Source: a virus
Lineage: Duplodnaviria > Caudoviricetes
DNA: 64,000 nt
IMG/VR virus record: IMGVR_UViG_3300044627_003892
Reading direction: 5' to 3' (one strand)
A program made the translations under genes and the position numbers. The notes beneath the pieces are model-generated. The model was not told the DNA's origin. It searched no databases and saw only the letters and a list, made by a program, of their open reading frames with translations. Every line of letters starts with the position of its first letter. The first letter of the stretch is position 1. This document shows positions 19,960-41,333 of the stretch, piece by piece.

Positions 19960-19988
19960 TTATTTTATAGGTTTTTTATTTTTTAAGT

Positions 19989-21419: not shown

Positions 21420-21486
21420 TGCGTAGTTATTTTATTAAATAAATATGCAGATGTTTAGAAAAATTAATTTTTTTTGGTTTTTAAAT

Positions 21487-21514
21487 AAAAAAAGGGGACT
21501 TTTGTCCCCCTTTT
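21487..21514. terminator. Intrinsic terminator
   Basis: GGGGAC-tttt-GTCCCC flanked by A/T runs. Confidence 0.75.
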
Positions 21515-21536
21515 AAATTCTTTTTAAACTTTGTGA

Positions 21537-21752
21537 TTACTCAAACACTTCGTCAATTTTACTTTCACTTACTGAAGTAATTCTCCAATCATAACTAAAT
21601 GATTTGTAAGCCTCAGTAACTTTAGCTTCTACATCAGTAACAGAATAACCTTTTACAAGTTTTTCTTCTCTTACCTTTTTAATTTTTCCTGTGTTTTCAT
21701 CTGGCAAATCGTATTGGATTTTAGCCACAAAGTATTTTTCGTCCATTTCCAT
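21537..21752 (-). CDS. Hypothetical protein
   Basis: 71-aa ORF downstream of the prohead protease. Confidence 0.75.
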   Translation of the reverse strand: MEMDEKYFVAKIQYDLPDENTGKIKKVREEKLVKGYSVTDVEAKVTEAYKSFSYDWRITSVSESKIDEVFE

Positions 21753-21758
21753 AATTGT

Positions 21759-22478
21759 TTATTTTCCTAAATAATCGGAAAGTCTTCCCATTAAATCAAG
21801 CGATTTGTTAACTGTTCTTGATGCTTTCATCTCATTTTCTTCTTGTAGGTTCTCCTCAAACGCAAATCTTCCATCAGGTTCAGTAAATAAATAAGCTCCT
21901 GGTGTTGATGGTGAAGATACCAAGTCAAAACAAATTAATTCAAAATCATCTTGAACTTCATTTTGGTCACCTACCTTCTTTAAGGAACCTACCCCTCTTG
22001 ACGATATACCTAACGTTACACCTAATCTTAATAGATTTGCCGCTTGGTCACCCTTTGTTGATACGATACCTCTTTCATGGAACCCTGGTGAAGTTAGAAG
22101 TAATAACTTACCTAATAGAACATTACCATCCCACCACATCTCTGTAATCATGTGTGATACTCTATCTAAATCTATCAATGAAGACTCAGGGTGGTTAAGT
22201 TCTGATAAAGCGGTTTTCTTACCGATATAATTTTTTATATAATTTTCAGATTCTCTCTTTAAAATTCTTTCAGGATATATTCTACCGTTTCTATTGGGTG
22301 TATTATATTTTTGTAGAACGGCATAGAACTCAAATGGTTTTGAATAATCTTTAAAATCCCTACTTTCTTGTAAGAATGTTTGATTATGTTTTTCTGTCGG
22401 GGAAACATATCCCGCATCCATCTCAATTAAAATACCTTTTCCTGTCTCTTTTGGACCTAATATTTTGTAATTTTGCAT
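21759..22478 (-). CDS. gp21: Prohead core protease (gp21-like)
   Basis: NRNGRIYP, ELNHP (catalytic His), LGISSRGVGS (catalytic Ser), FDLVSSPSTPGA. Confidence 0.93.
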   Translation of the reverse strand: MQNYKILGPKETGKGILIEMDAGYVSPTEKHNQTFLQESRDFKDYSKPFEFYAVLQKYNTPNRNGRIYPERILKRESENYIKNYIGKKTALSELNHPESSLIDLDRVSHMITEMWWDGNVLLGKLLLLTSPGFHERGIVSTKGDQAANLLRLGVTLGISSRGVGSLKKVGDQNEVQDDFELICFDLVSSPSTPGAYLFTEPDGRFAFEENLQEENEMKASRTVNKSLDLMGRLSDYLGK

Positions 22479-22500
22479 TTTACCTTTTTATAGATAAATA

Positions 22501-22965
22501 TTAAATACTTTCTATTTTATCGGTTGTTTTTATTTTGTTCGATTTTGTAAGATAAAATTTGAAATATTTTGATTTTTTAAAAGATTCTTTTTCTACATAA
22601 TTTATGATATTTTTAATAGAATTTTTTAGTTCTACAGATTTAAAATCAATATCTTTTTTCAAAAAGAATGTTACTTCTAAATTCATAAAAGACCTTTTCT
22701 TAATTGTTATTCCACTTGTCCTTAAATCTAAATCAACTATAAATTTTTCATTTAGTAAGTCATTGTCGATAATTTCTATTAAGTTTGTTTTAATATTTTT
22801 ATTAAATACTGATACAATTCTATTCCAACTTTCTTCGTGTGTCTTTGGTTCAACCCAAGATTGGATATTTAAATAAATTGATTTTAAATTTTTTGAGTCA
22901 ACCGTACCATAAGAACATTTTATTTGTTTATATCCTCTAACCACACAACTTTTTCCTTTTTTCAT
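22501..22965 (-). CDS. Hypothetical protein
   Basis: 154-aa ORF divergent from bS21. Confidence 0.75.
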   Translation of the reverse strand: MKKGKSCVVRGYKQIKCSYGTVDSKNLKSIYLNIQSWVEPKTHEESWNRIVSVFNKNIKTNLIEIIDNDLLNEKFIVDLDLRTSGITIKKRSFMNLEVTFFLKKDIDFKSVELKNSIKNIINYVEKESFKKSKYFKFYLTKSNKIKTTDKIESI

Positions 22966-22989
22966 TTACAAGTTTTTCATATCTTCGTT

Positions 22990-22997
22990 TATTTATG
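22990..22997 (+). promoter_or_regulatory. Putative late promoter TATTTATG upstream of bS21
   Basis: Same sense-strand motif as at structural genes, 36 nt before ATG 23034. Confidence 0.5.
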
Positions 22998-23033
22998 TAA
23001 GTAATATTAATCAACAAAAACCGAGTTGTCAAA

Positions 23034-23219
23034 ATGCTAATAATTCCCGTAAAAAATAACGATTTAGAAAAATCTTTAAAAAACTTTAAATCAAAAGTTT
23101 TAAAAACCAAAATGATTGTAGAGTTACAAAACAGAAAAAACTACAAAAAAAAATCTGACATAAAACGTCAGATTTTAAATGATGCTATTTATAAAAATTC
23201 AAAAAATAAAGATTTATAA
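23034..23219 (+). CDS. rpsU: Ribosomal protein bS21 (phage-encoded)
   Basis: MLIIPVKNNDLEKSLKNFKSKV..ELQNRKNYKKKSDIKR matches Bacteroidetes bS21 (MLIIPVK...ALKRFKRK...ELR.R..F.KPS..RR). Confidence 0.85.
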   Translation: MLIIPVKNNDLEKSLKNFKSKVLKTKMIVELQNRKNYKKKSDIKRQILNDAIYKNSKNKDL

Positions 23220-23924
23220 ATTTTGTGTTAAATTCATTAATTTAATATATTCTTTTTTAGAATGTTTTACATTTGTAAGTCTTTCTTTTGTTTCTAATAA
23301 AACTTTTGATAGTTCTTCATCAGACTCTGAAATAAGAGTGTCAATTTTTTGAATTGCAGTTTCTTTTAATTCTGTAAATTTTGTTTTTAAATTTTCATCA
23401 TTTGATGATAAAATTTCTTTAACAGAATTTCTTTCAGATTCAGTTAGGTTTTCTAAATATTTTTCAGCCGTTTTATTAGCAACTTTTAACATTGAACTAA
23501 TTGGTACGTTTGTAGATTTAGTTTCTTTTATTATTGGTTTTTTACCTAAAGACTCAACGATTGATTTTTTAGCAATTGATTTCTTTTCAGGTTTTAGTAA
23601 ATCACCATAAAATAATTCATCAATTGTTTTGTATTTGTTTTCAAGTACAATATCCTTAGTCCAACTTTTAACAAAATTTACTGTATTTTCAGATAATTTA
23701 ATTTGTCTAAATTCATTAGATAAATCATCAACCAAATAAGTTGCGGTTTCTTTATCTAATTCTTTATTTTCTTTTAAATTATCATATATCGACATTAATT
23801 TACAAAAATCACTATTTTTAAGTAATTTTCTTTCAAAAAGTCGCATATCAGTTTTAAGAGTTCCTTTAACAAAGGAATCAATTAATTTATTTTCTACTAA
23901 TGTTTTTATTAATCCAAATCTCAT
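23214..23924 (-). CDS. Hypothetical protein in head module
   Basis: 236-aa ORF after portal; late motif at 23940-23947. Confidence 0.8.
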   Translation of the reverse strand: MRFGLIKTLVENKLIDSFVKGTLKTDMRLFERKLLKNSDFCKLMSIYDNLKENKELDKETATYLVDDLSNEFRQIKLSENTVNFVKSWTKDIVLENKYKTIDELFYGDLLKPEKKSIAKKSIVESLGKKPIIKETKSTNVPISSMLKVANKTAEKYLENLTESERNSVKEILSSNDENLKTKFTELKETAIQKIDTLISESDEELSKVLLETKERLTNVKHSKKEYIKLMNLTQNL

Positions 23925-23947
23925 GTCTATATTTTTTTATATAAATA

Positions 23948-25804
23948 TCAATTCTTTAGTAGTTTATCTAATTCGGTACCCATTTCACCTAAAGAATTTT
24001 GAACTTTTGACAAATCAATCAATTCATCCTCATTTAACATACCTCTATTTTCTAATAAAATATTTAAATTTTCTTTATTTCTCTCATCGTTTTCAGGTAC
24101 AGTCCCTCCTTCTGCAGGTGGTGCTGGTGATGGTGATTCAGGTGGTGCCGGTGACTCTCCTCCCATATCACCCATTCCTCCTAAATCAGGTGGTGCTCCT
24201 AATCCTCCTCCTGTGTCAGTTGCCCCACCTTCAGTAGGTGTTCCAGCCGGTTCACCTTCTTTTTTACCATACAACTTGTCTATGTTATCAAATATACCTG
24301 TGTGAGTAATAACTTCAGCAGTTTTCTTAAGTTCTTCACCAACGGCTCTTTCGATACGTTGTTGTTGTAAATCAAGTTTAATTTCATCATCAGAAAATCC
24401 AAGAATATGTTTCTTAGCCCATGACATAGAAACTGCCGCAATACCACTTCCTGGGTCGGCAACCATATCTTTAAATAATAGTATTTTTTCTTTCCATACA
24501 TCAATCTTTAGTAAATCCGCTTGTGTTGAAGGATTTGTTAAACTTAATGTAAAGTTTGATATTTCATCCTCAAACCCTAATATGAATAAATGTATTATCG
24601 CAATTTTATTTAATTCAGAAATCATATTCTTTTGAATACGATTGATGGTACGAGCGAAACGAATATCTTGTAATGATAAATTCTTACCATCACCAACAGT
24701 TTCTTCAAAACCTAAAAATGCTTTAGGAACACGAAGAGCTGTTAACAATTTCTTTTGGATATACTCAATATCGGCAATCTCTGATAAGTTCGCAGCTCCC
24801 GGTAATGTCTCAATCGGCATTGTTTGTGTAGTATCTCTAACAGGAACGAAATAATCTTGGTCAACCGCCATCTGATTAAATCTCATATCCACATTACCTG
24901 TCTTATGGTCAACCGTTTGACTTCTCTTAAACTTATTAGCAAATCTTTGGATATATGGTTCAACATCCGCATCATCCATGTTACCAACAAATACTTTAAA
25001 TACACGTCTTTCAGGTGCTCTTGATGTTCTGTAAATTAACATAGCATCTTCAGATAACAATAATTGTTTCCAAATACGACGAGCCTTTTCTAACATAGAA
25101 GTTCCATAAGGAAGTCTTCTATCATCACCAAGTAATCTAAAGTGTGCAACTTCCCAAGTATTAAACTCTAAATCCTTTTGTTTCCATTTGAATTTTAAAT
25201 GTTTCTTTTCAGGATTTGTTGTCGAATCTGTTGAGTGAGCACCCATACCTGCTTCCAATCTTTCAATCTCGATGACTGGTAATTGCATACATCCTATAAT
25301 ACCTTTTTCAGGGTCTAATTTAAGATATACAAAATTATCACCATACTTACATGTGTTTCTTATCCACATAGGTAAGTTAGTATTAATATCTAACGCATTG
25401 TTAAATAAATCACCTAAAATAGATTTAATTCTTGTTGACTCAGAATAGATTTGTAACATAAAACCATCCTGATTAATTGTTGTTGACTCTTCAGCATAAA
25501 TGTCTAAAGCCGCACCAATTTCAGGTGTAAATTCCATTGACTCGTAGTCATAAAAAGACGCTAAACGAGTTGGTTCATAGTAAACTGCCTGTGTATATAG
25601 ATTATTCTCAACCCTACCCCATTGGTTTGCTAAGTAATATGTTTGTTGAGCTTGTAATTTCTCTCTATCATATTCAGATTTAGAAGTTGTCTTTAAAAGT
25701 TCCTTCTTATCATATTTGTACGTAGGATAATCCTGACCCAAAAGAGAATTGGGTCCAAATGTTTGGGATAACCGTTGCCATACCGTTAGTTTATTTTCAC
25801 TCAT
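23948..25804 (-). CDS. gp20: Portal vertex protein (gp20-like)
   Basis: EDAMLIYRTSRAPERRVFKVFVG, QDYFVP, IETLPG, DIEYIQKKLLTALRVPK, DIRFARTINRIQ. Confidence 0.93.
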   Translation of the reverse strand: MSENKLTVWQRLSQTFGPNSLLGQDYPTYKYDKKELLKTTSKSEYDREKLQAQQTYYLANQWGRVENNLYTQAVYYEPTRLASFYDYESMEFTPEIGAALDIYAEESTTINQDGFMLQIYSESTRIKSILGDLFNNALDINTNLPMWIRNTCKYGDNFVYLKLDPEKGIIGCMQLPVIEIERLEAGMGAHSTDSTTNPEKKHLKFKWKQKDLEFNTWEVAHFRLLGDDRRLPYGTSMLEKARRIWKQLLLSEDAMLIYRTSRAPERRVFKVFVGNMDDADVEPYIQRFANKFKRSQTVDHKTGNVDMRFNQMAVDQDYFVPVRDTTQTMPIETLPGAANLSEIADIEYIQKKLLTALRVPKAFLGFEETVGDGKNLSLQDIRFARTINRIQKNMISELNKIAIIHLFILGFEDEISNFTLSLTNPSTQADLLKIDVWKEKILLFKDMVADPGSGIAAVSMSWAKKHILGFSDDEIKLDLQQQRIERAVGEELKKTAEVITHTGIFDNIDKLYGKKEGEPAGTPTEGGATDTGGGLGAPPDLGGMGDMGGESPAPPESPSPAPPAEGGTVPENDERNKENLNILLENRGMLNEDELIDLSKVQNSLGEMGTELDKLLKN

Positions 25805-25842
25805 ATTTTAATTATAAATATTCTTATAGATTATTAAACAAT

Positions 25843-27306
25843 TTATCCAATATTATATGGACATGAACCTAAATTAGTAACACTTAGATTACTTCCAGTA
25901 GGTTCTGAACACAAACACATATATACTACATAGTTTTTAGGTAATGTAAACGATGTCGGAGCATCAACAAATGGAGGTGACATACTAACTGTTGCAGTAG
26001 CTCCTGTTGCTTCAAGTCGATATTGATTAGTAACACAAGTTCCACTATTTCTAGTACAAGCAGATGCACTAGTCGAAACCACACCTTCTACAACTTGATA
26101 AAAATATGGTGGTATTGTATTTCTCGTATTATTTCTTAAGTTAAAGTTTACATCTAAAAATGCAGTTCCTCCACTAAATAATCCTTGACTACTTGGTGGG
26201 TTATTTGTAAAAGTAATTGCTGAGTATGAATTACAATACCCTGTATTAAAAGGTACTGTATTACCAAAAAATCCATAAAATGTCTCATTATTACAAGTAC
26301 CACCAGTACATGGACCATAATTAGCTTTAATTATTGATATATCTTCATTAACAATTCGTGCACATACTTGGATTGATTCTCCAGCATTTATATTACCAAT
26401 AAATACTGTCCCCGAACAATCGTTATAATTATAATTTAAGGCACCTGCAGTAGGGTTTGTTAAATACCAACAACGACATTCTGGTATTGTCGGTGTCGGT
26501 GTAGTAGTTTGGGTAGGAGTGATTGTTGAAGTTATTGAAGGTGTTGGAGTTTGAGTATTAGTAGTGGTTTGAGTATTAGTAGGGGTTTGAGTTTGAGTTT
26601 GAGTTACTGAAGGTGTTGGTGTTGGTGTTTGGGTTTGCGTATTAGTCAGAGTTATTGAAGGTGTTGGTGTTGGGGTAGGTGTCGGACAAACTCCTGCATT
26701 ACAAAAAGGTGTATCTATACCTATTGAAATACCAGGTGCACTAATTGAATTTTGTTTAGCACAGAACCTTGTTGTTGTATTAGGTAACATTGACCCTGTA
26801 ATTGTACCTCCCGAACATGAAATACCACTATATGATAGTGGAGGAGCGAGAGGAGCTCCTGTAATATAACTTAAATCATAACAAACACAAGATATTTCAG
26901 TTGGTGTTACAGTTTGAGTATTGGTTGGTGTTATAGTATTAGTTGGTGTTTGTGTCGGAGTTTGAGTGTTTGTAGTCGTTACGGTTTGAGTTATTGATGG
27001 TGTCGGTGTTTGAGTTTGAGTGTTTGTAGGTGTTTGAGTTTGGGTTAAAGATGGCGTCGGTGTTTGAGTTTGGGTTAAAGATGGCGTCGGTGTTTGAGTT
27101 TGAGTTAAAGAAGGTGTTGGAGTATTGGTCGGGGTTACAGAAGGTGTTGGAGTTAAAGGAGGTCCAGGTTCACCCTTTGTTTGTTTTATTAAAAAAACAA
27201 ACTTTTTTAATTTACCGGTTAATGAACCGAAATTTTCTTGGCCCTCAACAATTAATTTTGAGCCGGTAAATATTCTACCTGATTTTTTTCTATCTCCTGT
27301 TCCCAT
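25843..27306 (-). CDS. Mucin-like Thr/Pro-rich protein with Cys-rich modules (putative virion appendage)
   Basis: TPTPSxTQTQ repeat blocks alternate with Cys-rich modules; located between terL and portal. Confidence 0.6.
   Translation of the reverse strand: MGTGDRKKSGRIFTGSKLIVEGQENFGSLTGKLKKFVFLIKQTKGEPGPPLTPTPSVTPTNTPTPSLTQTQTPTPSLTQTQTPTPSLTQTQTPTNTQTQTPTPSITQTVTTTNTQTPTQTPTNTITPTNTQTVTPTEISCVCYDLSYITGAPLAPPLSYSGISCSGGTITGSMLPNTTTRFCAKQNSISAPGISIGIDTPFCNAGVCPTPTPTPTPSITLTNTQTQTPTPTPSVTQTQTQTPTNTQTTTNTQTPTPSITSTITPTQTTTPTPTIPECRCWYLTNPTAGALNYNYNDCSGTVFIGNINAGESIQVCARIVNEDISIIKANYGPCTGGTCNNETFYGFFGNTVPFNTGYCNSYSAITFTNNPPSSQGLFSGGTAFLDVNFNLRNNTRNTIPPYFYQVVEGVVSTSASACTRNSGTCVTNQYRLEATGATATVSMSPPFVDAPTSFTLPKNYVVYMCLCSEPTGSNLSVTNLGSCPYNIG
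27031..27120. repeat. 30-nt coding tandem repeat x3 (PTPSLTQTQT)
   Basis: tgtttgagtttgggttaaagatggcgtcgg exact twice, third copy degenerate. Confidence 0.9.
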
Positions 27307-27312
27307 ATAATG

Positions 27313-29058
27313 TTATCTTCGTCCCCCGAATAACCATAAATAGTTTTCGTAGTCACTTTTTGTTGCCTCTCGTTTAATGTTTTCTTGTTGTTGTGAAATT
27401 ACCGGGTCCATGAATTGTCTTCTGTTAAATTCATTTGTATTAACAGTCCATGAGTCAATCATCGCTTTTGTTTGATTTGTAACCTTATTAAGTGATGAAA
27501 ATGATGTTTCACCAACATAAAGAGCCATGGCAACAGACATAATCAAGTCATCATGTTGTCCCTTTTGGTGGTCAGGTCTTCCATTCACATAAATAAATGT
27601 GTTCATCTCATTTAATAAACGAGTTGAGTTTATTCTAAACCCATGTCTTAAATATTCCTCAAATGTTGCAATAATTTGAACTCGTTTAGCATTAAAGTTA
27701 ATTCCTGGTATTTTTTCAGTCGCCTTTGGGTCATATTGCCACTTATTTGAAATATCAACTCCATCAACATATACATTTCTATATCCTAACTCTCTCAATC
27801 TTAAAGATGTCGTAACTCCCATACCACCAGTGATATCCACAACAATAAATGCATTATACATATTACCCCATTTATAACATATTTCAGCTAAAGTGTCAGG
27901 AGGAAGTTTACCAACGTACTCAGCAACCTGTTCTCTTGAGTCAAAATCAACAATTTGGAATGTTGAAAAGTCTTCACTATCACCACGAGATACGTCAACA
28001 CCCATAATATATTTTTTACCTATTTCAGGTTCTTTCCAAATCCATAGTCCACCACCCATCATTTTTGTAGGAGGTTCCTTAACCATATTTATCCTTAAAT
28101 CTTCCAACATATCAGAATTAAATACGTTATCCCCCGAACCAAGAAACGCACATTCCAACTCCTGATTGACCTTACGTTTATCGTACTTAAGTTTTTTAAC
28201 CATTGACTCATACCAAGATGAGTTTGGTTTATAACCCTGTGAAATTAGTTGTCTTATCTCATCAAAGTTTTTTTCTTTATTGTTATATTCAATAATTTCA
28301 ACATCAGGATATTCATTACGATTTAAGTAATAATGAATAATATCTTTAACATTAACTAATGATAAATCTTTTGCATATCTTGGGTCTTTCCACCAAACCA
28401 TTTCGGAAACTTTAAATTCATTCATTCCCTTTAACGCTTGGTCGTATATTTCATAATAAATTGCATCATATCCGTTTGGTGTTGATACAACTATCACCTT
28501 ACCACCTGTGGATAAAGATGCCATACAAGCCGCCCAAAAATCACTATCTGCTTCAATATATGCAGCCTCGTCAAATATTAATATTGTCGGTGTATAACCA
28601 CGAAGAGCATCCTTAGATGTTGCAACCGCCTTAACTTCACATCCGTTAGTTAATTTAAAATGTCTTTGTGAGTTTTTTTCAGATGAAAATCCAACACCAA
28701 CCCAACTAGGCCATTGGTCAGTAAATCCTCTAATCTTATTTGCAACCTCAACCGCAGTATCTAACTTATTTGCAATAATTAAAACTTTTTCAGGACTATT
28801 CTTTTTAGCAAAAACAAGTTTTTTTGATGACCAAGCAGCTGTTACCGTAGATACTCCGGCTTGTCTATACTTTAGTGCAATATTTTCATTATAATTCTCG
28901 TAATCCTCAACCAGACTAATTTGGTCAGGAAATAACTCTAATGGGACATACTTTGAAACAGTGTTGTCATACGTCTGTAAATAAGTTTTAAGGGCGTATG
29001 GTGTTGATTTCATACACTTGGCATACTCCATTAAAACGGCTTCTTTAGATAAACTCAT
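27313..29058 (-). CDS. terL: Terminase large subunit
   Basis: KYRQAGVST (Walker A variant), LIFDEAA (Walker B), VVSTPNG, QELECAF, MGVDVSRG, HDDLIMS. Confidence 0.93.
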   Translation of the reverse strand: MSLSKEAVLMEYAKCMKSTPYALKTYLQTYDNTVSKYVPLELFPDQISLVEDYENYNENIALKYRQAGVSTVTAAWSSKKLVFAKKNSPEKVLIIANKLDTAVEVANKIRGFTDQWPSWVGVGFSSEKNSQRHFKLTNGCEVKAVATSKDALRGYTPTILIFDEAAYIEADSDFWAACMASLSTGGKVIVVSTPNGYDAIYYEIYDQALKGMNEFKVSEMVWWKDPRYAKDLSLVNVKDIIHYYLNRNEYPDVEIIEYNNKEKNFDEIRQLISQGYKPNSSWYESMVKKLKYDKRKVNQELECAFLGSGDNVFNSDMLEDLRINMVKEPPTKMMGGGLWIWKEPEIGKKYIMGVDVSRGDSEDFSTFQIVDFDSREQVAEYVGKLPPDTLAEICYKWGNMYNAFIVVDITGGMGVTTSLRLRELGYRNVYVDGVDISNKWQYDPKATEKIPGINFNAKRVQIIATFEEYLRHGFRINSTRLLNEMNTFIYVNGRPDHQKGQHDDLIMSVAMALYVGETSFSSLNKVTNQTKAMIDSWTVNTNEFNRRQFMDPVISQQQENIKREATKSDYENYLWLFGGRR

Positions 29059-34250: not shown

Positions 34251-34298
34251 TAGTTGAATTTAAGAACAAATTCATTTAATTTTAATAAAAACTATTTT

Positions 34299-36362
34299 AT
34301 GACAGATTCAGTTGAAGAGGGTGGGAAACTACCAAAAAAAACAGAGGTAAATTCAAATACACCTGTGTTAGACAATTTTAGTCGTGACCTTATTAAACTT
34401 GCCGAAGAAGGTAAGTTAGACCCCGTTGTCGGTAGGGAAGACGAAATATTACGTATCGCCCAAATTCTTTCAAGAAGAAAGAAAAACAACCCAATTATCA
34501 TCGGTGAACCTGGTTGTGGTAAGACGGCAATTGTTGAGGGATTGGCAATGAAGATTTTTGAAGGTGATTGTCCAAGAAACTTGGTTGATAAACGTATTTT
34601 ATCATTAGAGATGAATTCGGTTGTTGCAGGAACAAAGTATCGTGGTCAATTTGAAGAACGATTAAAGGTTATCCTGGAAGAAATTCAAGCAAACCCAAAT
34701 GTTATTTTATTCATCGATGAAATCCATACGATTGTAGGTGCAGGTAACGCCTCAGGTTCAATGGACGCTTCTAACATTTTAAAACCTGCATTATCAAGAG
34801 GTGAAATACAATGTATTGGAGCAACGACATTGGATGAGTATAAAAAACAAATTGAGAAGGACGGAGCGTTAGATAGACGTTTCCAAAAAGTGGTGGTTAG
34901 TTCTTCAACAAAAGAAGAAACATTACAAATCCTTAAGAATGTTAAAGACAAATACGAAAATTATCACAAAGTAAATTATACCGATAATATTCTACAAATC
35001 TGTGTTGATTTAGCCGAGCGATATATCACCGACAGAGAGTTTCCCGATAAGGCATTTGATATTTTGGATGAAGTCGGAGCAAGAGCTCAAGTAGATGTAA
35101 AAAATCCTGAAATAATTGACGAATTAAAACGTCAGGCATTAGAGATTAAACAACAAAAATTACTTGTTGTTAAAAAACAGAATTACGAAGAAGCTGCGAA
35201 CTTAAGAGATAAAGAAAAGAAAGTTTTATCACAACTTGATATTGAAAAGAAGAAGTTTGAACAAACTCTTTTGGATAATAGAAAAACAATTTCAGAAGAA
35301 TTGGTTTACGAGGTGGTGTCAACAATGACAAAAATACCTCTAACAAAACTTAATTTAGACGATAAGATTGCTCTTATTAATTTAGAAGAAGAATTAAATA
35401 AATCAGTAATTGGACAAAAAGAAGCGGTTACAAAGATTGCAAAATCTATTCGTAGAAATAGATTAGGTATTAAAGACCCAAATAAACCAATTGGTTCATT
35501 TATATTTTTAGGTTCAACAGGTGTTGGTAAGACTTTATTGGCAAAAGAATTGGCAAAACAAATCTTTGGGAGTGATGAAAATCTTATCCGAGTTGATATG
35601 TCTGAATATCAAGATAAACATACCGTATCTCGTTTGATTGGTTCACCTCCAGGTTATGTAGGATATGATGAAGGTGGACAACTTACAGAACAGGTAAAGA
35701 CCAAACCATACTCTGTGGTATTATTTGACGAGGTTGAGAAAGCACACAAAGACATATTCTCAGCATTACTTCAACTATTGGATGAAGGGTATATGACAGA
35801 TAGTTTTGGAAGAAAAATCAATTTCAAGAACTGTTTAATCATTATGACTTCAAATCTTGGGGTAAAAAAGATGCAAGAGTTTGGAGCGGGGGTTGGATTT
35901 AGTAAGACAGGTAATGTTTATACCAACGAAGAACTTAAGAAAACAATGTTAAACAAAGAATTGAAGAACCACTTCGCACCTGAGTTTATCAATCGTTTGG
36001 ATGAGGTAATTGTATTCAACACACTTCAAAATGACGATATTCAAAAAATTGTTTTGGTTGAGGTCAACAAATTAAAGTCTCGTTTATCAAAATTGGGATA
36101 CAACATTAACTTCGGTCAGTCAGTAATTGACTTTGTTTCAAAAGTTGGATTTGATGATGTTTACGGAGCACGTCCTTTGAAGAGAGCAATCCAAGAAAAG
36201 ATTGAAGACTATATTTCAGATGAAGTATTACGTGAAAAAATTGTAATGGATAAGTCCTACAATATTGAAATCAATGAGGAGGAAGTGTCAATATCAGAAA
36301 TTGAAGTACAACCTGATGAAACACCGAAAGTGAAAAGACCAAGAAAGAAAAAGGGGGAATAA
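34299..36362 (+). CDS. clpC: ClpC-like AAA+ unfoldase lacking the N-terminal Clp-repeat domain
   Basis: GEPGCGKT/LFIDEIH (NBD1), UVR-type coil QNYEEAANLRD, GSTGVGKT/LFDEVEK (NBD2), GVGF ClpP-docking loop; sequence begins at LDNFSRDL; ATG at 34299. Confidence 0.9.
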   Translation: MTDSVEEGGKLPKKTEVNSNTPVLDNFSRDLIKLAEEGKLDPVVGREDEILRIAQILSRRKKNNPIIIGEPGCGKTAIVEGLAMKIFEGDCPRNLVDKRILSLEMNSVVAGTKYRGQFEERLKVILEEIQANPNVILFIDEIHTIVGAGNASGSMDASNILKPALSRGEIQCIGATTLDEYKKQIEKDGALDRRFQKVVVSSSTKEETLQILKNVKDKYENYHKVNYTDNILQICVDLAERYITDREFPDKAFDILDEVGARAQVDVKNPEIIDELKRQALEIKQQKLLVVKKQNYEEAANLRDKEKKVLSQLDIEKKKFEQTLLDNRKTISEELVYEVVSTMTKIPLTKLNLDDKIALINLEEELNKSVIGQKEAVTKIAKSIRRNRLGIKDPNKPIGSFIFLGSTGVGKTLLAKELAKQIFGSDENLIRVDMSEYQDKHTVSRLIGSPPGYVGYDEGGQLTEQVKTKPYSVVLFDEVEKAHKDIFSALLQLLDEGYMTDSFGRKINFKNCLIIMTSNLGVKKMQEFGAGVGFSKTGNVYTNEELKKTMLNKELKNHFAPEFINRLDEVIVFNTLQNDDIQKIVLVEVNKLKSRLSKLGYNINFGQSVIDFVSKVGFDDVYGARPLKRAIQEKIEDYISDEVLREKIVMDKSYNIEINEEEVSISEIEVQPDETPKVKRPRKKKGE

Positions 36363-36378: not shown

Positions 36379-37197
36379 TTAGAAATTATATAATTGTGAC
36401 CTATGGATAAATTCGTATTTCTGATTACCAAGTTCTTCAATCAGTTTTTTACCTGTATTCATACCAGCAAAAACTTCATGGACAACAACATATTCATTTG
36501 GTGTGTGATAGTTGTGATAACCAATTGAGAAGTTGATACAAGAGAAATCAAACTTTTTACGTAGTTGCCAAACATCAGTGTAAGGATGTTGCATATATTG
36601 AGGTTCAGACAACATACCTTCAGAAAGAACTTTTTTAGCTTTTGACTCAAATTCAGAATCCGTTTCAAAAACTTTAACACCGTAACAATATTCTGTTACC
36701 ATGTAATCGTGAGGGGCGTCAAACTGAATAGCATAACCTACATTACTAAAAAATTCAGGGTCTGCTTCTTTTGAACCCAAACAACCAACTTCTTCTGTTA
36801 CAAACAAAGCAACTTTAATTACATCAAAGACTTCTAATAACTGAAGACAGGCAAACACCCCACACTTATCATCACCACCAATACCTGTAGGGCCACCCAA
36901 GTCGTTATACGCTTTAAGTGATAAACTTAAATTACCTTTTGAATCTTTAAGTTGTTCTTCATGGATGTTGATTGTGTCAATTTTATGTACCGTATCGGTA
37001 TGTGCAACAATACAAGGATAAAATTCACCCTCATTTATTTCACCTTTTGTGACATAAACATTTCCAAAGTCATCAACTTTAAAATTGTGTTTTTTTTCGG
37101 TTAAATATTCAACCAAAAATTCAATCATTAAATCTTCTTTAAATGATTTTGTAGGTATTGACAATACCTTTTTTAAGAAATCAACATTTTCTATCAT
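36379..37197 (-). CDS. M28/M42-type zinc aminopeptidase
   Basis: IVAHTDTV, GGDDKCG, TEEVG, IQFD, GYHNYHTPNE metal-ligand motifs. Confidence 0.85.
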   Translation of the reverse strand: MIENVDFLKKVLSIPTKSFKEDLMIEFLVEYLTEKKHNFKVDDFGNVYVTKGEINEGEFYPCIVAHTDTVHKIDTINIHEEQLKDSKGNLSLSLKAYNDLGGPTGIGGDDKCGVFACLQLLEVFDVIKVALFVTEEVGCLGSKEADPEFFSNVGYAIQFDAPHDYMVTEYCYGVKVFETDSEFESKAKKVLSEGMLSEPQYMQHPYTDVWQLRKKFDFSCINFSIGYHNYHTPNEYVVVHEVFAGMNTGKKLIEELGNQKYEFIHRSQLYNF

Positions 37198-37224: not shown

Positions 37225-38304
37225 TTAAAACAATTCAGGATGATATAAAAAATTTAAGAAAGTATCATAATCAATTTTAACGGTTTGGTTAAATTTATCT
37301 TTACTATGATTACTATATGTAATAAGTATTTTTCCGTCATCAACATCTTGAATTATGAATTTGTCAGGTGTCTTTTCACCAAATGTTTTTTGTGGAGGAA
37401 ATTCATACCATTTATTAAATTCACCATACTTTAACTTTGATAATTTTTCAAGTATTTCAGAGTTTTTACGATAAGAATCAATATTATCACTATCTTCAAT
37501 TTTTTCCATGATTTTATCAAGATTCCAAGTTACACTTCTGTTAAAACCTTCATCATCATAATTTTGACTATCAAAATAAGCATAATAATCTTCATATAAA
37601 TCTTCATCAAACTGTATTCCCAATTGGTCAATACTTGTTTTTAACATATCTGAAAGTTTAGCGTCTTTGTCTTCACCAGACTTATCCCAAGTATTTAAAA
37701 GAATTGCTACAGTTGTCATGTAGAGATTAGTACATTTTTTCTCAAAGATATTTAAAGGAAGTAAAGCGTTACATAATTTAGATGTAACATATTGTCTTAA
37801 TCCTTTAACCAAGGCTTCATCATATTCACTTGAATAATCGTAAATAATACTATCTATCTCATTTGAAAATTCATTTTTTAACCACTTACAAATTTCAATA
37901 ACTTTATCGTTATGATTTCTTAAATCCTCAACGGAAAGACTAGGTCTTAATATTTTTACTATTTGTTTGACCCTATCTAAATTCTCATCATTGAAATAAT
38001 GTAGTAAATAACCCTCATCCCAATCATAATCCATGGAATAATCATCAACAAAAACATTACCTCCATAATACCCCCCTTGGAAAGCAACTCTAATTAAATA
38101 ACCGTTATTAGTTTCATCATTATTTCTAGTGAAAAGGTCAACATAATCATCACTATCAAACGTTAAATAAACCAAAGACTTACCAAGATTTTTTTCATTT
38201 ATTCTCGTAATACGTAAAATATCCTCATCGTCTTCGTACCTAACAAAATTTGCAGTAACTAAATCTTCCGTAAAATCTTTTAATGCCTGATAAAGTTGAC
38301 TCAT
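37225..38304 (-). CDS. Hypothetical acidic protein
   Basis: 359 aa; late motif at 38318-38325. Confidence 0.8.
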   Translation of the reverse strand: MSQLYQALKDFTEDLVTANFVRYEDDEDILRITRINEKNLGKSLVYLTFDSDDYVDLFTRNNDETNNGYLIRVAFQGGYYGGNVFVDDYSMDYDWDEGYLLHYFNDENLDRVKQIVKILRPSLSVEDLRNHNDKVIEICKWLKNEFSNEIDSIIYDYSSEYDEALVKGLRQYVTSKLCNALLPLNIFEKKCTNLYMTTVAILLNTWDKSGEDKDAKLSDMLKTSIDQLGIQFDEDLYEDYYAYFDSQNYDDEGFNRSVTWNLDKIMEKIEDSDNIDSYRKNSEILEKLSKLKYGEFNKWYEFPPQKTFGEKTPDKFIIQDVDDGKILITYSNHSKDKFNQTVKIDYDTFLNFLYHPELF

Positions 38305-38343
38305 TAAACTTTTTTTAAATAAATACTTGGTTAAAGAAGAATA

Positions 38344-38351
38344 TATTTATA
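38344..38351 (+). promoter_or_regulatory. Putative late promoter TATTTATA upstream of tmRNA
   Basis: Motif 27 nt upstream of the mature 5' end; overlapped by TATCTTTA (host-like variant). Confidence 0.45.
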
Positions 38352-38378
38352 TCTTTACAACATAGTTCTTTGATTTAT

Positions 38379-38761
38379 GGGGGTGTTTCTGGATTTGACA
38401 GGAATGAATTTATTATAAAACGCACGTCGGGGCTAAACTAACCCTGTAAAACTGGTTTAAAACACAAACGGCAACACAATTGCAAAACTTTCTACACTCG
38501 GTTTAATCCGTACTGAAGAAGTAACTGTAGCCTAATCTAAGATTAGTATACAACGGGGTCGGTGAGCATATAACCTTGCAACAGAAGCTTGTACCGTGGT
38601 GTGGTTTCTATCCGAAAAGGAACAAAAACCTTGTTTGTCTGTTACGGAAGGTTAATCTAAACAGAATATTTTGGAATGTTAAGAACTAACATTATCCTAA
38701 ACGTGTAGTGTTTTATCGTAAACATTTTTGGACCTGGGTTCGAAACCCAGCACCTCCACCA
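38379..38761 (+). ncRNA. ssrA: tmRNA
   Basis: 5' GGGGGTG...GGATTTGAC; 3' CTGGG-TTCGAAA-CCCAG-CACCTCC-ACCA; G3-U70 alanine determinant; tag ORF 38470-38535 GNTIAKLSTLGLIRTEEVTVA-TAA. Confidence 0.92.
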
Positions 38762-38764
38762 ATT

Positions 38765-38792
38765 AAAAAGGGACTTTTCAGTCCCTTTTTTT
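38765..38792. terminator. Bidirectional terminator after tmRNA
   Basis: AAAAAGGGACT-tttc-AGTCCCTTTTTT. Confidence 0.85.
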
Positions 38793-39762
38793 ATTTTATA
38801 AATCTTTTAAAGTTTTTCAGTTCTTCAGTTAAACTTGATTCTTCTTCTTTTTTCTTAGATTCCTCTTCTTTTTTCTTAGATTCCTCTTCTTTTTTCTTAG
38901 TTTCCTCTTCTTTTTTCTTTTCTTCTTCTTTCACTTTTTCAGTTTCTTTAGCCGCCTCAACAAACTCTTTAATTGGTAATCCTAAAAGTAATGAGTTACA
39001 AAAGTTATCTTTTTTGATAATATGACCTTCACCAAATAATTCAATAACTTCTTTAACATATTTTTCACAATCAGATTCACTTGTTATTACGGATATTTTT
39101 TTAGTTCCAAATTTATCAATTATTTTTTCAAATTCAGTATCTACTTTAGATTGTGACCAATCTAACCATTCCGGTACAGGTTCAGGAAATTCAAAATTAG
39201 CTAAATTTGATTCCGGTATCGAACTACAAAAATTATAAGTACTATTTGATTCATCTTTTCCATTTTCAGACCAAGATAGATGGTAATGGGGCCCTGTTGA
39301 ACGTGGACTTGGGTGTCTATATTCATCAATAAACGTAAATCCGTCAATAGATTGTCTAGCAGCACACAAAAGAGTTGATATTTTATCTAATGTTTCATCG
39401 TCAGACACTCTGAGGTCACCTACAGCTGTTTTCCCAAACACTATGTCATTAGCGTTTCCTTGGGTATGTCGGCTTCTTGTTGACTTATGATATCTATCAC
39501 GTCCAGCACCAAATCTTATCTTTAACTCAGGCATTTCTTTTTTAAACGCTGAAGATACTTTTTTTATAACATTTGCTAATTCTGGAGTAATATCACCAAG
39601 TTCATCTATTGTTGATTTATGTGCATATCCTAAACTATTTAAATGTGTTCTAACACCATTTGCATTAACGTGAGTTGATTTATCAACTTTTTCTTCAAGT
39701 AAAACATTTCTTAATTTTTTAATTTCAGAAATAACTTCTTTGTGACTATTAATCTTATTCAT
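38791..39762 (-). CDS. M15/LAS-type zinc peptidoglycan peptidase with propeptide-like N-terminus and K/E-rich tail
   Basis: SRHTQGNAND (SxHxxGxAxD) and GPHYHL (HxH); start at MNKINSHKE (39762); 4x KKKEEE(S/T) tail. Confidence 0.7.
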   Translation of the reverse strand: MNKINSHKEVISEIKKLRNVLLEEKVDKSTHVNANGVRTHLNSLGYAHKSTIDELGDITPELANVIKKVSSAFKKEMPELKIRFGAGRDRYHKSTRSRHTQGNANDIVFGKTAVGDLRVSDDETLDKISTLLCAARQSIDGFTFIDEYRHPSPRSTGPHYHLSWSENGKDESNSTYNFCSSIPESNLANFEFPEPVPEWLDWSQSKVDTEFEKIIDKFGTKKISVITSESDCEKYVKEVIELFGEGHIIKKDNFCNSLLLGLPIKEFVEAAKETEKVKEEEKKKEEETKKKEEESKKKEEESKKKEEESSLTEELKNFKRFIK

Positions 39763-39775
39763 ATATTTTTTTTGT

Positions 39776-39789
39776 ATATTTATAAATAT
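39776..39789. promoter_or_regulatory. Palindromic bidirectional late promoter ATATTTATAAATAT
   Basis: Perfect palindrome between divergent ATGs 39762(-) and 39791(+). Confidence 0.6.
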
Positions 39790-39790
39790 T

Positions 39791-40558
39791 ATGGAAAACA
39801 ATAAATTAATTAAAATTGCACAAAAGTTATCTTTATCGATTAAAGATACAAATGTTGCACAAATATCAAGAAAATTAAATAGCAGTAAAGGCCCGTATAA
39901 ACAAATGATGTCCGTGTTAGAAGGATGGGATTTTGTTAAATTGGTATTTTTAATTAATGCCATTAATAATGGTGAAAAAGAATTTGAATCAATATTATGG
40001 AAATTAGATAATGAAGGATTTACCTACGCAATTGCTAATGTATTTGATACTGAAGTTCAGGAAAGCTGTGATTACTGTGGTGGTGATGGTGAGATTAGTT
40101 GCAGTGAATGTGATGGTTCAGGTGAAGTAGAATGTTCTGATTGTGGTGGTGAAGGTGAAAACGAAGAAGGTGAAACATGTGGAAATTGTGATGGTGGTGG
40201 TAAAAGTGATTGTGATACCTGTGGGGGTAGCGGTCATGAAGATTGTTATGACTGTAGTGGTACAGGTGAACAACAAAAAAGCGACGCTTACGAATTAAAA
40301 TTAGACTTTTATTTTAGTATTAATGAAGAATTAAAATCAGAAATTAGTAAACTTAACAGATATGACAAAATTGACTCTGACACAATCACAGATTATGAAG
40401 ATACAAATGAAACTATATTAGTATACGCATCACCGATGGCAATAGAAGTTGAGACAAATGAAGAATTAGAATATAATACCGAATATTTTTATGAAATAGA
40501 TACTGCTGGATGGGTTGGTAATACGGCTAGTAGCCCAAACTTTGATTTAGATTATTAA
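39791..40558 (+). CDS. DnaJ-type zinc-finger protein (six CxxCxGxG repeats, no J domain)
   Basis: CDYCGGDG, CSECDGSG, CSDCGGEG, CGNCDGGG, CDTCGGSG, CYDCSGTG; no HPD motif. Confidence 0.8.
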   Translation: MENNKLIKIAQKLSLSIKDTNVAQISRKLNSSKGPYKQMMSVLEGWDFVKLVFLINAINNGEKEFESILWKLDNEGFTYAIANVFDTEVQESCDYCGGDGEISCSECDGSGEVECSDCGGEGENEEGETCGNCDGGGKSDCDTCGGSGHEDCYDCSGTGEQQKSDAYELKLDFYFSINEELKSEISKLNRYDKIDSDTITDYEDTNETILVYASPMAIEVETNEELEYNTEYFYEIDTAGWVGNTASSPNFDLDY

Positions 40559-41252: not shown

Positions 41253-41259
41253 AAAATAG

Positions 41260-41333
41260 TACCCCCGAAGGGATTCGAACCCCTGGCCCACAGATTAGAA
41301 ATCTGTTGCTCTATCCTACTGAGCTACGAAGGC
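41260..41333 (-). tRNA. tRNA-Arg(UCU)
   Basis: GCCTTCG TA GCTC AGTAGGATA GAGC A ACAGA TT-TCT-AA TCTGT GGGCC AGGGG TTCGAAT CCCTT CGGGGGT A; CCA not encoded; TATATTTG promoter at 41346-41353. Confidence 0.92.

What the first reader, a model, noticed from the sequence alone, without database searches (positions are those of the whole stretch)
38379..38761. Phage tmRNA with a long non-canonical tag (A)GNTIAKLSTLGLIRTEEVTVA
Seen: a complete tRNA-like domain with G3-U70 and encoded CCA, and a 21-codon frame at 38470-38535. Established: Bacteroidetes tags are typically about 9-10 residues starting with G and ending YALAA, and terminal AA is the ClpX determinant. Inference: the phage tag keeps the G resume codon but is twice as long and ends TVA, so rescued proteins may go to a different protease (the adjacent phage ClpC) or escape degradation. 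The resume codon is inferred; no smpB is seen in the window.
Basis: partly seen in the sequence, partly recalled or inferred. Interest (0 to 1): 0.7.

Follow-up and report, generated by a model that had tools for sequence, protein, structure and literature searches.

The report
Phage tmRNA with conserved double-length tag
A giant lake-water phage of Bacteroidota carries its own working-looking copy of the ribosome-rescue RNA (tmRNA). Its "destroy-me" tag is twice the usual length, ends differently from every host tag sampled, and is conserved across about 80 related phage contigs, always beside a phage ClpC-type unfoldase.

Summary
ARAGORN and Rfam RF00023 (126 bits, full length) both place a one-piece tmRNA at 38379-38761(+), with G3.U70, a T-arm and an encoded CCA.

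ARAGORN's GCA at 38482 is not.
- Relatives lack that GCA.
- All 55 distinct relatives keep exactly 21 codons plus TAA from the aligned Gly or Asp codon.
- The frame-setting A at -4 is invariant (39/39).
- Variation is of the coding type: codon position 3 varies more than 1, and 1 more than 2; pN/pS is about 0.5 in frame and above 1 out of frame.

The tag family is [GD][NE]x[ILF]xK[LM]xxxG[LF]IR[TE]E..[VA]A.
- It occurs on about 79 IMG/VR contigs.
- It was not found in 401 sampled Bacteroidota genomes or in 50,697 GenBank phage records.
- Of 51 Bacteroidota tags, 50 are 8-10 residues ending [LM]AA.

The gene always lies in a ClpC (no N-domain, VGF ClpP loop) / M28-like peptidase / unknown-protein cluster. 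No smpB was found. Metatranscriptome contigs from four studies cover it.

Where tagged proteins go (phage ClpC or host proteases) remains inference. Some relatives carry a group I intron in the T-loop.

First readers of this scan noted the same tag family on four other genomes. Phage tmRNAs are known, so this is a new variant of a known kind.

The parts
38379..38761 (+). One-piece tmRNA gene (ssrA), no intron, CCA encoded
   Evidence: ARAGORN. Rfam RF00023 at 126.1 bits, full model. Covariation in 20 of 39 pairs.
38379..38385 (+). 5' strand of the acceptor stem (GGGGGTG). G3 at 38381 forms the G.U alanine identity pair with T38755.
   Evidence: Sequence. Seven covarying acceptor versions among relatives, with G1-C, G2-C and G3.U invariant.
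38428..38459 (+). Pseudoknot PK1 upstream of the tag: stems CGGGG/CCCTG and TAAAC/GTTTA
   Evidence: Infernal alignment. Both stems keep pairing through compensatory changes in relatives, for example CGGAG/CTCCG and TGAAT/ATTCA.
38465..38469 (+). Frame-setting sequence CAAAC just before the resume codon: pyrimidine at -5, A at -4
   Evidence: A at -4 in 39 of 39 distinct relatives; -5 is T (33) or C (6). This corresponds to E. coli U85/A86, the main frame determinant (PMC2481249).
38470..38535 (+). Tag reading frame: resume codon GGC (Gly), 21 codons giving GNTIAKLSTLGLIRTEEVTVA, then stop TAA at 38533-38535
   Evidence: Infernal aligns the consensus resume codon to GGC. Relatives without the internal GCA are called from GGC by ARAGORN. 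All 55 distinct relatives have 21 codons plus TAA. Coding-type variation.
38734..38761 (+). T-arm, 3' strand of the acceptor stem (CACCTCC), discriminator A and CCA
   Evidence: Sequence. T-stem pairs covary.
38326..38357 (+). Candidate host-type (Bacteroidota) promoter: CTTG, 20 nt, then TATCTTTA. In most relatives it reads TTTG/CTTG ... TA..TTTG.
   Evidence: Conserved in position upstream of the gene in near and distant relatives. The match to the Bacteroidota -33 TTTG / -7 TAnnTTTG consensus rests on my own knowledge and was not tested.
38765..38797 (+). Intrinsic terminator (11-bp hairpin plus T run) four bases after the CCA
   Evidence: Terminator scan. Relatives have hairpin-plus-T-run terminators of different sequence at the same place.
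34254..36362 (+). ClpC-type double AAA+ unfoldase without the N-terminal domain, with UVR-type middle domain and VGF ClpP-docking loop (context gene)
   Evidence: Pfam AAA_2, AAA_lid_9, ClpB_D2-small, UVR. phrog_4871. Best solved relative is S. aureus ClpC 6em9, 731 bits, aligned to its residues 156-803; 'gagvgfsktg' aligns with the ClpP loop.
36379..37197 (-). M28/M42-like peptidase (context gene)
   Evidence: phrog_4191 peptidase, E 7e-36. Weak Pfam M28/M42 matches. Kept next to ClpC and the tmRNA in all relatives.
37225..38304 (-). Conserved 359-aa protein of unknown function, divergently placed next to the tmRNA (context gene)
   Evidence: Present beside the tmRNA in nearly all relatives at 23-97% identity. 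AF2 pLDDT 89. No fold match.

Best explanation
This is a functional one-piece tmRNA encoded by a large (over 240 kb) freshwater myophage of Bacteroidota. The phage is of the lineage that also carries ribosomal protein bS21.

Proposed mechanism:
- The gene is its own transcription unit, with a host-type promoter-like element upstream and a terminator right after the CCA.
- Host enzymes process the RNA, and host AlaRS charges it with alanine through G3.U70.
- It works with the host's SmpB and EF-Tu, since the phage has no smpB.
- It enters ribosomes stalled in the infected cell. Translation resumes at GGC 38470 and appends (A)GNTIAKLSTLGLIRTEEVTVA to the unfinished protein before normal termination at TAA.

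The phage thereby adds ribosome-rescue capacity during infection and labels the products with a phage-specific 21-residue tag instead of the host's G..NYALAA tag.

Because the peptide itself is conserved, I take it to be a specific recognition signal. The most likely reading is a two-part degron: a central K-L...G-L-I-R-T-E-E part and a non-polar V-x-V-A carboxy end. It would be read by the co-located phage ClpC unfoldase, docked on host ClpP through its VGF loop. The neighbouring aminopeptidase would finish the breakdown so that amino acids are recycled.

Shown: the gene, fold, frame, tag conservation, gene cluster and presence in RNA libraries.
Inferred: charging, use of host SmpB, actual tagging, and above all which protease reads the tag.
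For: Gene and fold:
- ARAGORN and RF00023 at 126 bits.
- Compensatory changes in 20 of 39 pairs, in H2, the T-arm and a PK hairpin.
- Seven covarying acceptor stems with invariant G3.U.
- PK1 stems covary.

Frame:
- Infernal puts the consensus resume codon on GGC.
- L033 and L053 lack the internal GCA, and ARAGORN then calls GNVINKLSTIGLIRTEEVSVA.
- All 55 distinct sequences have 21 codons plus TAA.
- A at -4 is invariant, as for E. coli A86.
- The other two frames have stops in 39 of 39 sequences.

Selection on the peptide:
- Entropy by codon position is 0.51 / 0.26 / 0.93.
- In relatives found by ClpC synteny alone, pN/pS is 0.48 in frame against 1.25 and 1.10 off frame.
- The tag region is much more conserved than its flanks (about 0.57 against 1.2-1.4).
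- The tRNA-like domain and pseudoknot modules are swapped between relatives while the tag stays.

Phage-specific tag:
- 67 of 68 IMG/VR pattern hits are tmRNAs.
- 50 of 51 Bacteroidota tags are 8-10 residues ending [LM]AA.
- 401 Bacteroidota genomes match only 30-65 nt of the 3' tRNA-like end.

Cluster: ClpC / peptidase / 359-aa protein / tmRNA is kept down to 66% ClpC identity, through an inversion of the peptidase gene and variable spacing.

ClpC: no N-domain, VGF loop present.

RNA: contigs of four metatranscriptome studies lie on 38390-38750. One is a 361-nt contig made only of tmRNA. Another is a 134-nt contig with no differences at depth 123.

Precedent for long tag meaning a different protease: the 27-residue Mycoplasma tag is read by Lon (PMC8403727).
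Against: There is no experimental evidence of charging, tagging or degradation.

The ClpC linkage may be only inherited gene order. All tmRNA-bearing loci belong to one phage clade, so the association is a single evolutionary event. A huge phage with a 57%-identical ClpC has no tmRNA, and neither do the ClpC loci at 37-38% identity.

ClpP was found in only one of four large relatives.

A non-polar carboxy end such as VA could well be read by host ClpXP, Lon, FtsH or Tsp.

Contigs from RNA libraries cannot prove transcription.

The window's own -7-like promoter element has an A where most relatives have the consensus G.
Confidence: 0.6

Rival explanations
1. The tmRNA is functional as described, but host proteases (Lon, ClpXP, FtsH or periplasmic Tsp) read the tag through its non-polar end and hydrophobic stretch. 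The neighbouring phage ClpC and peptidase have other jobs. They sit next to the tmRNA only because the gene order was inherited.
For: All loci with the cluster belong to one clade, so the linkage is one event. Other ClpC-bearing phages have no tmRNA. The tag ends in small non-polar residues, like cellular tags, and one variant ends YAA (L090). Long tags read by Lon are known in Mycoplasma.
Against: Host tags in the phylum are very uniform (50 of 51 end [LM]AA). The phage tag has stayed different and invariant in length across about 79 contigs. The central residues K6, G11, I13, R14 and E16 are conserved, which a generic non-polar tail would not need.
Confidence: 0.28
2. The tag is not a degron. 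The phage tmRNA frees ribosomes, but its long tag avoids the host ClpXP/SspB route. Rescued products are then spared, or host proteases are not clogged. Alternatively, the RNA mainly competes with host tmRNA for SmpB.
For: There is no terminal Ala-Ala. There is no phage smpB, so it must share the host's. A phage tRNA-like-domain-only tmRNA (DS6A) inhibits host tmRNA (PMC4131195).
Against: Mere avoidance of degradation would not require a conserved 21-residue peptide under purifying selection with fixed length. A pure SmpB sponge would not need a conserved reading frame, the A at -4 or a stop codon.
Confidence: 0.1
3. Translation resumes at the in-frame GCA (38482), as ARAGORN calls it, giving a 17-residue tag AKLSTLGLIRTEEVTVA.
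For: ARAGORN's call on the window and its closest relatives. Ala is the commonest resume residue in bacteria. A at -4 is also present before this GCA in the window.
Against: The GCA codon is AAC, TCT or GAC in many relatives, while the four codons before it are conserved in frame with synonymous changes (ATT/ATC, GGC/GGA). The invariant A at -4 sits before the Gly/Asp codon. Infernal aligns the resume codon to GGC.
Confidence: 0.02

Closest known systems
One-piece tmRNA (SsrA, Rfam RF00023) of Bacteroidota, with tags such as GENNYALAA or GNTSYALAA
   Same: Same overall architecture, full-length match to the model, G3.U70, and PK1 before the tag. The Gly (or Asp) resume codon and a G-N/E start are common in this phylum. 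The upstream promoter-like element is of the host type.
   Different: The tag has 21 residues instead of 8-10 and ends V-x-V-A instead of [LM]AA. The sequence matches 401 sampled Bacteroidota genomes only over 30-65 nt of the 3' end. It is encoded by a phage and has no smpB next to it.
Known phage-encoded tmRNAs: mycobacteriophage Bxz1 group and Bacillus phage G (PMC4131195); two-piece tmRNAs of pelagimyophages and OM43 phage Melnitz, with 402 of 18,146 phage genomes carrying a tmRNA (PMC9004378); tmRNA and SmpB in huge phages (PMC7162821)
   Same: A phage carries a complete ribosome-rescue RNA. The proposed roles are to keep the hijacked translation apparatus running or to tag proteins for recycling.
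   Different: This is a different host phylum and a different, unrelated sequence family. There was no blastn or tag match in 50,697 GenBank phage records. Here a specific long tag is conserved across the clade and is linked to a ClpC/peptidase cluster. None of the papers I read analyses such a tag.
Mycoplasma tmRNA with a 27-residue tag read by Lon (Gur and Sauer 2008; PMC8403727)
   Same: An unusually long tag without the canonical ClpX end, interpreted as a switch of protease specificity.
   Different: That case is cellular and arose after loss of ClpXP. Here the host keeps its own canonical tmRNA, and the second, different tag is brought in by a virus. The protease is unknown.
bS21-encoding freshwater Bacteroidetes myophages (PMC9723584)
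   Same: The window has bS21 (23034-23219, Pfam E 3e-10) on the opposite strand among the portal, head and TerL genes. It also shows low GC, a lake origin, and the Clp and chaperone genes that paper mentions.
   Different: That paper predicted tRNAs with tRNAscan-SE only and does not mention tmRNA (0 occurrences). I did not test whether the window belongs to one of its five clades.
Intron-form bacterial tmRNA genes (group I intron in the T-psi-C loop; 883 sequences, PMC11915505)
   Same: Relatives such as L032 have a 228-nt group I intron (RF00028, 71 bits) between GGGTT and CGA of the T-loop. A U precedes the 5' splice site and a G ends the intron.
   Different: These are in phage genomes. 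The window's own gene has no intron.

Membership tests
tmRNA (Rfam RF00023, one-piece form) | Covariance-model score above the curated gathering score over the full model | tested here: met
   126.1 bits against 47, model positions 1-374 of 374, E 7e-49. ARAGORN agrees.
tmRNA (Rfam RF00023, one-piece form) | tRNA-Ala-like domain: 7-bp acceptor stem with G3.U70, T-arm, discriminator A and CCA end, no anticodon arm | tested here: met
   Read from the sequence. G1-C, G2-C and G3.U are invariant, and positions 4-7 covary in seven versions. The T-stem covaries.
tmRNA (Rfam RF00023, one-piece form) | Long helix H2 and pseudoknot PK1 between the tRNA-like domain and the tag | tested here: met
   H2 pairs with 9-10 double changes each. 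PK1 stems are kept through compensatory changes.
tmRNA (Rfam RF00023, one-piece form) | Short open frame with no start codon, set by a conserved A four bases upstream and ending in a stop codon | tested here: met
   21 codons plus TAA in 55 of 55 sequences. A at -4 in 39 of 39. Role of A86 from PMC2481249.
tmRNA (Rfam RF00023, one-piece form) | Works with SmpB; is alanylated and tags proteins | not testable with these tools
   No SmpB (PF01668) in four relatives' contigs of 209-242 kb, 71-82% complete. It would have to use the host's. Activity needs experiments.
Canonical ssrA degron read by ClpX (C-terminal L-A-A-COOH) | Tag ends in [LM]-A-A, as in the host phylum | tested here: not met
   The window tag ends T-V-A. 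The family ends [TSAV]-V-A, with one variant ending Y-A-A. Host tags: 50 of 51 end [LM]AA.
ClpC-type Hsp100 unfoldase (neighbour gene 34254-36362) | Two AAA+ modules, short UVR-type middle domain, ClpP-docking [IV]-G-[FL] loop | tested here: met
   Pfam AAA, AAA_lid_9, AAA_2, ClpB_D2-small and UVR. 731 bits to S. aureus ClpC, with VGF at the aligned loop.
ClpC-type Hsp100 unfoldase (neighbour gene 34254-36362) | N-terminal Clp_N domain that binds adaptors and phospho-arginine | tested here: not met
   The alignment starts at residue 156 of ClpC and at position 162 of the PHROG profile. Only about 30 residues precede the first ATPase module.
Group I intron (RF00028) in relatives' tmRNA genes | Covariance-model score above gathering; U before the 5' splice site, G at the intron's end; exons rejoin to a normal T-loop | tested here: met
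   L032 14433-14663, 71.4 bits against 50. The junction GGGTT | intron ...TTTAG | CGACCCCCGG restores the T-arm. The other eight intron-bearing sequences were judged by likeness at the junction only.

The most novel reading that the evidence does not exclude
The tmRNA, the N-domain-less ClpC and the aminopeptidase form a self-contained, phage-private quality-control and recycling pathway. The phage rewrites the label put on stalled-ribosome products to a 21-residue degron that only its own unfoldase reads, docked on host ClpP. The pathway is thus orthogonal to the host's ssrA-ClpXP route. It would let the phage clear rescue products, for example those arising when host mRNA is destroyed or when defence nucleases cut mRNA or tRNA, without competing with host substrates.
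Probability: 0.3. Interest if true: 0.75.

Novelty: new variant of a known kind. Interest (0 to 1): 0.55.

Why it matters
tmRNA tags are normally read as a host quality-control signal. Here a virus brings a second tmRNA whose tag differs from the host's in length and ending, and keeps that tag nearly unchanged across a widespread group of abundant lake phages. Meanwhile the rest of the RNA is shuffled by recombination and even invaded by introns.

That makes one question directly testable: do phages only boost ribosome rescue, or do they redirect what happens to the rescued proteins? It also offers a candidate new degron/unfoldase pair.

Together with the phage bS21 gene, it shows that this lineage intervenes in host translation at more than one step. 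Practically, ARAGORN misplaces the resume codon in most members and misses the intron-containing ones. The published description of the bS21 phages, which I take to be the related lineage, does not mention a tmRNA.

Tried and rejected
- **Mis-specified pattern.** My first IMG/VR pattern for the 5' end was miscounted and found nothing. This was my error and is not a result.
- **No whole genome.** None is held for the window.
- **GenBank phages.** blastn of the tmRNA and tblastn of the 21-residue tag against 50,697 records found no match.
- **Bacterial genome contigs.** None of the 120 fetched loci gave an nhmmer match to the tmRNA. The 40 contexts I printed were nearly all the cytidylate kinase motif G[LF]IRTEEV, mostly in Lachnospiraceae. 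This scan therefore cannot show that the tag is absent from bacteria. The narrower statement rests on blastn against 401 sampled Bacteroidota genomes.
- **SmpB and ClpP.** SmpB was not found in four large relatives. ClpP was found in only one. These records are 71-82% complete, so absence is not proven.
- **Independent ClpC-tmRNA association.** I looked for one elsewhere. Huge phage LR745206 (ClpC 57% identical) has no tmRNA, and neither do the loci with 37-38% ClpC.
- **Tag look-alikes.** I looked for phage proteins ending in tag look-alikes within the window and found none.
- **The 359-aa neighbour.**
  - No Pfam or PHROG family.
  - No Atlas hit.
  - Confident AF2 model, but no convincing match in Foldseek PDB, AFDB clusters or VIA-align wide; the best Z was 5.0, to a helical fragment.
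- **Laid RNA contigs.** The 3.5 kb laid shows contigs only on the tmRNA. The flanking genes (about 37600-38286 and 38990-40500) have no cover in the four runs.
- **RNAalifold hairpin inside the tag** (alignment columns 119-123 with 150-154). It has no compensatory changes, so it has no support.
- **Complex prediction** was not used. The tag has 21 residues, below the 30 the tool asks for.

Full report
**1. The observation**

ARAGORN finds one tmRNA in the window, at 38379-38761 on the + strand. Rfam's RF00023 model matches the same coordinates over its whole length (126.1 bits; gathering score 47; E 7e-49).

- Acceptor stem GGGGGTG / CACCTCC, with G3 (38381) opposite T38755.
- T-arm at 38734-38750.
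- Discriminator A, then an encoded CCA (38759-38761).

The frame GGC...GCC TAA at 38470-38535 is open for 21 codons. ARAGORN reads the same frame but starts at the internal GCA (38482).

An 11-bp hairpin with a T run follows four bases after the CCA.

The window is phage DNA. Major head protein, portal and large terminase lie at 18067-29058, with a bS21 gene among them (23034-23219). Close relatives are IMG/VR contigs of up to 242 kb.

**2. Relatives**

I first used the neighbouring ClpC-like protein as bait. It returned 77 IMG/VR loci, and 21 of them had an ARAGORN tmRNA about 2 kb downstream.

A degenerate DNA pattern for the tag core (G-L-I-R-T-E-E-V) then found 68 IMG/VR contigs. An nhmmer profile built from the first tmRNAs matched 67 of these. 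It also matched the ClpC loci where ARAGORN had found nothing, including a 12-contig clade with 71% ClpC identity whose tag does not fit the pattern.

In all, about 79 contigs and 55 distinct sequences carry this tmRNA family.

**3. Is it a real, selected tmRNA?**

On 23 representatives, RNAalifold finds 39 pairs. Twenty of them show changes on both sides that keep the pair, in helix H2, the T-arm and a pseudoknot hairpin.

The acceptor stem exists in seven covarying versions, while G1-C, G2-C and G3.U never change.

Both stems of PK1 are kept through compensatory changes.

**4. The resume codon and the tag**

Four lines of evidence agree on GGC 38470:
- Infernal aligns the consensus resume codon to it.
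- In relatives the internal GCA is AAC, TCT or GAC. ARAGORN then starts at the Gly codon and reads GNVINKLSTIGLIRTEEVSVA.
- From the aligned Gly (or, in two sequences, Asp) codon, all 55 sequences have exactly 21 codons and TAA. The other two frames contain stops in 39 of 39 sequences.
- The base at -4 is A in 39 of 39 sequences, and -5 is a pyrimidine. This is the U85/A86 arrangement shown to set the frame in E. coli (PMC2481249).

Variation is of the coding type. Entropy by codon position is 0.51 / 0.26 / 0.93. In the sequences found without the tag pattern, pN/pS is 0.48 in frame against 1.25 and 1.10 in the shifted frames. I left the eight pattern-constrained codons out of the test on the whole set; that test gave 0.56 against 0.76 and 1.16.

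The tag stretch is also far more conserved than the 30 bases on either side.

The family consensus is [GD][NE]x[ILF]xK[LM]xxxG[LF]IR[TE]E..[VA]A. The most divergent forms are GNVLDKMATIGLIREEAAVVA and GETFAKLQTLGLIRTEEVYAA.

**5. Comparison with the host phylum**

For 51 Bacteroidota genomes, drawn from an even sample of the phylum, ARAGORN gives tags of 8-10 residues. Examples are GENNYALAA, GNTSYALAA, ANYNYALAA, ADDYSYAMAA and DNNYSYRLAA. Fifty of them end [LM]AA; the odd one looks like a miscall.

The phage tag shares only the G-N/E start.

blastn of the phage tmRNA against 401 Bacteroidota genomes matched nothing but 30-65 nt of the 3' tRNA-like end. GenBank phages have no match to the RNA or the tag.

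According to the 2025 tmRNA database paper, the commonest tag length is 10 residues (PMC11915505).

**6. Context**

The gene upstream is a ClpC-type unfoldase. Its best solved relative is S. aureus ClpC, aligned from residue 156 onward. It therefore lacks the N-terminal adaptor domain, but it keeps both ATPase modules, the UVR middle domain and a VGF ClpP-docking loop.

After it come an M28-like peptidase and a 359-residue protein of unknown fold. A DnaJ-type zinc-finger protein and a GAF protein follow the tmRNA.

The order ClpC / peptidase / 359-aa protein / tmRNA holds in every relative with enough flank. This is so down to 66% ClpC, 41% peptidase and 23% identity of the unknown protein, and despite an inverted peptidase gene and variable spacing in the distant members.

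This fits a functional module, but it is one clade and hence one historical event. ClpC-bearing phages outside the clade have no tmRNA. No SmpB was found in four large relatives, and ClpP in one only.

**7. Expression**

Fourteen metatranscriptome runs from at least eleven lake or freshwater studies hold a third to a half of the sampled words of the stretch. I laid contigs from four of them, each from a different study, and they lie on 38390-38750:
- a 361-nt contig consisting only of tmRNA (4 differences);
- a 134-nt contig with no differences at depth 123;
- contigs that continue into a relative's alternative pseudoknot module or into the T-loop intron.

This shows that the sequence is present in RNA libraries from several lakes. 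It does not prove transcription.

**8. Transcription signals**

Upstream, near and distant relatives share a TTTG-like element, about 19-20 nt of spacer, then TA..TTTG. This lies roughly 25-30 nt before the mature 5' end. A hairpin terminator of varying sequence follows the 3' end.

From my own knowledge, this resembles the Bacteroidota -33 / -7 promoter consensus. That would mean transcription by unmodified host polymerase. I did not test this.

**9. Mechanism and rivals**

I take the gene to be a working tmRNA. It would use host AlaRS, SmpB and EF-Tu and would append a 22-residue tail (Ala plus 21 encoded residues).

The conservation of the peptide argues for a specific reader. The adjacent adaptor-independent ClpC is the best candidate, but only by position. 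Host proteases are a serious alternative. A non-degradative or competitive role is less likely given the selected frame.

The Mycoplasma precedent, a 27-residue tag read by Lon, shows that long tags can mark a change of protease.

**10. What is known**

Phage tmRNAs are established:
- 402 of 18,146 phage genomes carry one (PMC9004378).
- Huge phages carry tmRNA and SmpB (PMC7162821).
- The Bxz1-like mycobacteriophages and Bacillus phage G carry one (PMC4131195).

The paper on bS21 phages of freshwater Bacteroidetes, the likely lineage of this window, mentions Clp protease and chaperones but no tmRNA.

I found no description of this tag family or of its linkage to ClpC. First readers of this scan noted the same 21-residue tag on four other genomes and on the overlapping window. 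Those notes were not followed up.

**11. Verdict**

The resume codon and tag are confirmed and shown to be conserved. The fate of tagged proteins is open. This is a new variant of a known kind, of moderate to good interest.

Noticed in passing
L032:14443-14670 (likewise L020, L025, L017, L019, L029, L026, L111, L116): In nine distinct relatives the phage tmRNA gene is split in the T-loop (GGGTT | CGA) by a group I intron of about 228 nt (RF00028, 71 bits, E 6e-18 in L032). This is why ARAGORN misses them. Intron-form tmRNA genes are described for bacteria (PMC11915505). I found none described for phages. A metatranscriptome contig (run X7) runs from the tmRNA into this intron.
   Followed up: partly
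L002:7036-7429; also window / L015 / L022 against the rest at tmRNA positions about 245-330: The tmRNA is mosaic. L002 has a completely different tRNA-like domain (both the 5' and 3' parts, acceptor GGGGCCG/CGGCTCC, no encoded CCA), and a different PK1 module, joined to the same tag. Two alternative pseudoknot modules and two PK1 types are shuffled among relatives. Recombination swaps modules while the tag is kept.
   Followed up: partly
window 37225-38304 (-): A 359-aa protein is always found next to the tmRNA (23-97% identity among relatives). It folds confidently (pLDDT 89) but has no match in Pfam, PHROGs, Foldseek PDB, AFDB clusters or VIA-align wide. It could be an adaptor or another part of the module.
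   Followed up: partly
L143-L262 (bacterial genome contigs): The tag core G[LF]IRTEEV is identical to a conserved motif of bacterial cytidylate kinase (...NGE[DN]V[SN]GLIRTEEVGNMAS...), which flooded the genome scan. Probably coincidence.
   Followed up: no
window 38729-38763, run X1 record 5: A 395-nt metatranscriptome contig of high depth (309) shares only the T-arm and acceptor end with the phage tmRNA. It continues with ATGGGGGTGAGTGGATTTGACAGG..., the 5' start of another tmRNA. It may be the host's own tmRNA assembled as a cycle.
   Followed up: no
L263 (G004:C1:167371-167898, contig of L032): One relative (209 kb contig) encodes a true ClpP (PF00574, 184 bits). Three other large relatives do not, so ClpP is not a fixed part of the phage's Clp system.
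   Followed up: no
L015:9884-10266: This relative combines the 5' acceptor strand GGGGATG with the 3' strand CACCTCC, giving an A.C mismatch at pair 5. It is either a recent recombinant or a chimeric assembly.
   Followed up: no
window 23034-23219 (+): Ribosomal protein bS21 gene (Pfam E 3e-10) lies on the opposite strand among the portal, head and terminase genes, as in the published bS21 phages of freshwater Bacteroidetes. This phage thus touches host translation in at least two ways.
   Followed up: partly
window 38360-38378 and the same place in relatives: A second conserved element, AGTTCTTTGA..TAT, lies directly before the mature 5' end of the tmRNA even in distant relatives. It may be the transcript leader or a processing signal.
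   Followed up: no
window 41259-41333 (-): tRNA-Arg(TCT) lies 2.5 kb downstream of the tmRNA and is kept at a similar distance in most relatives.
   Followed up: no
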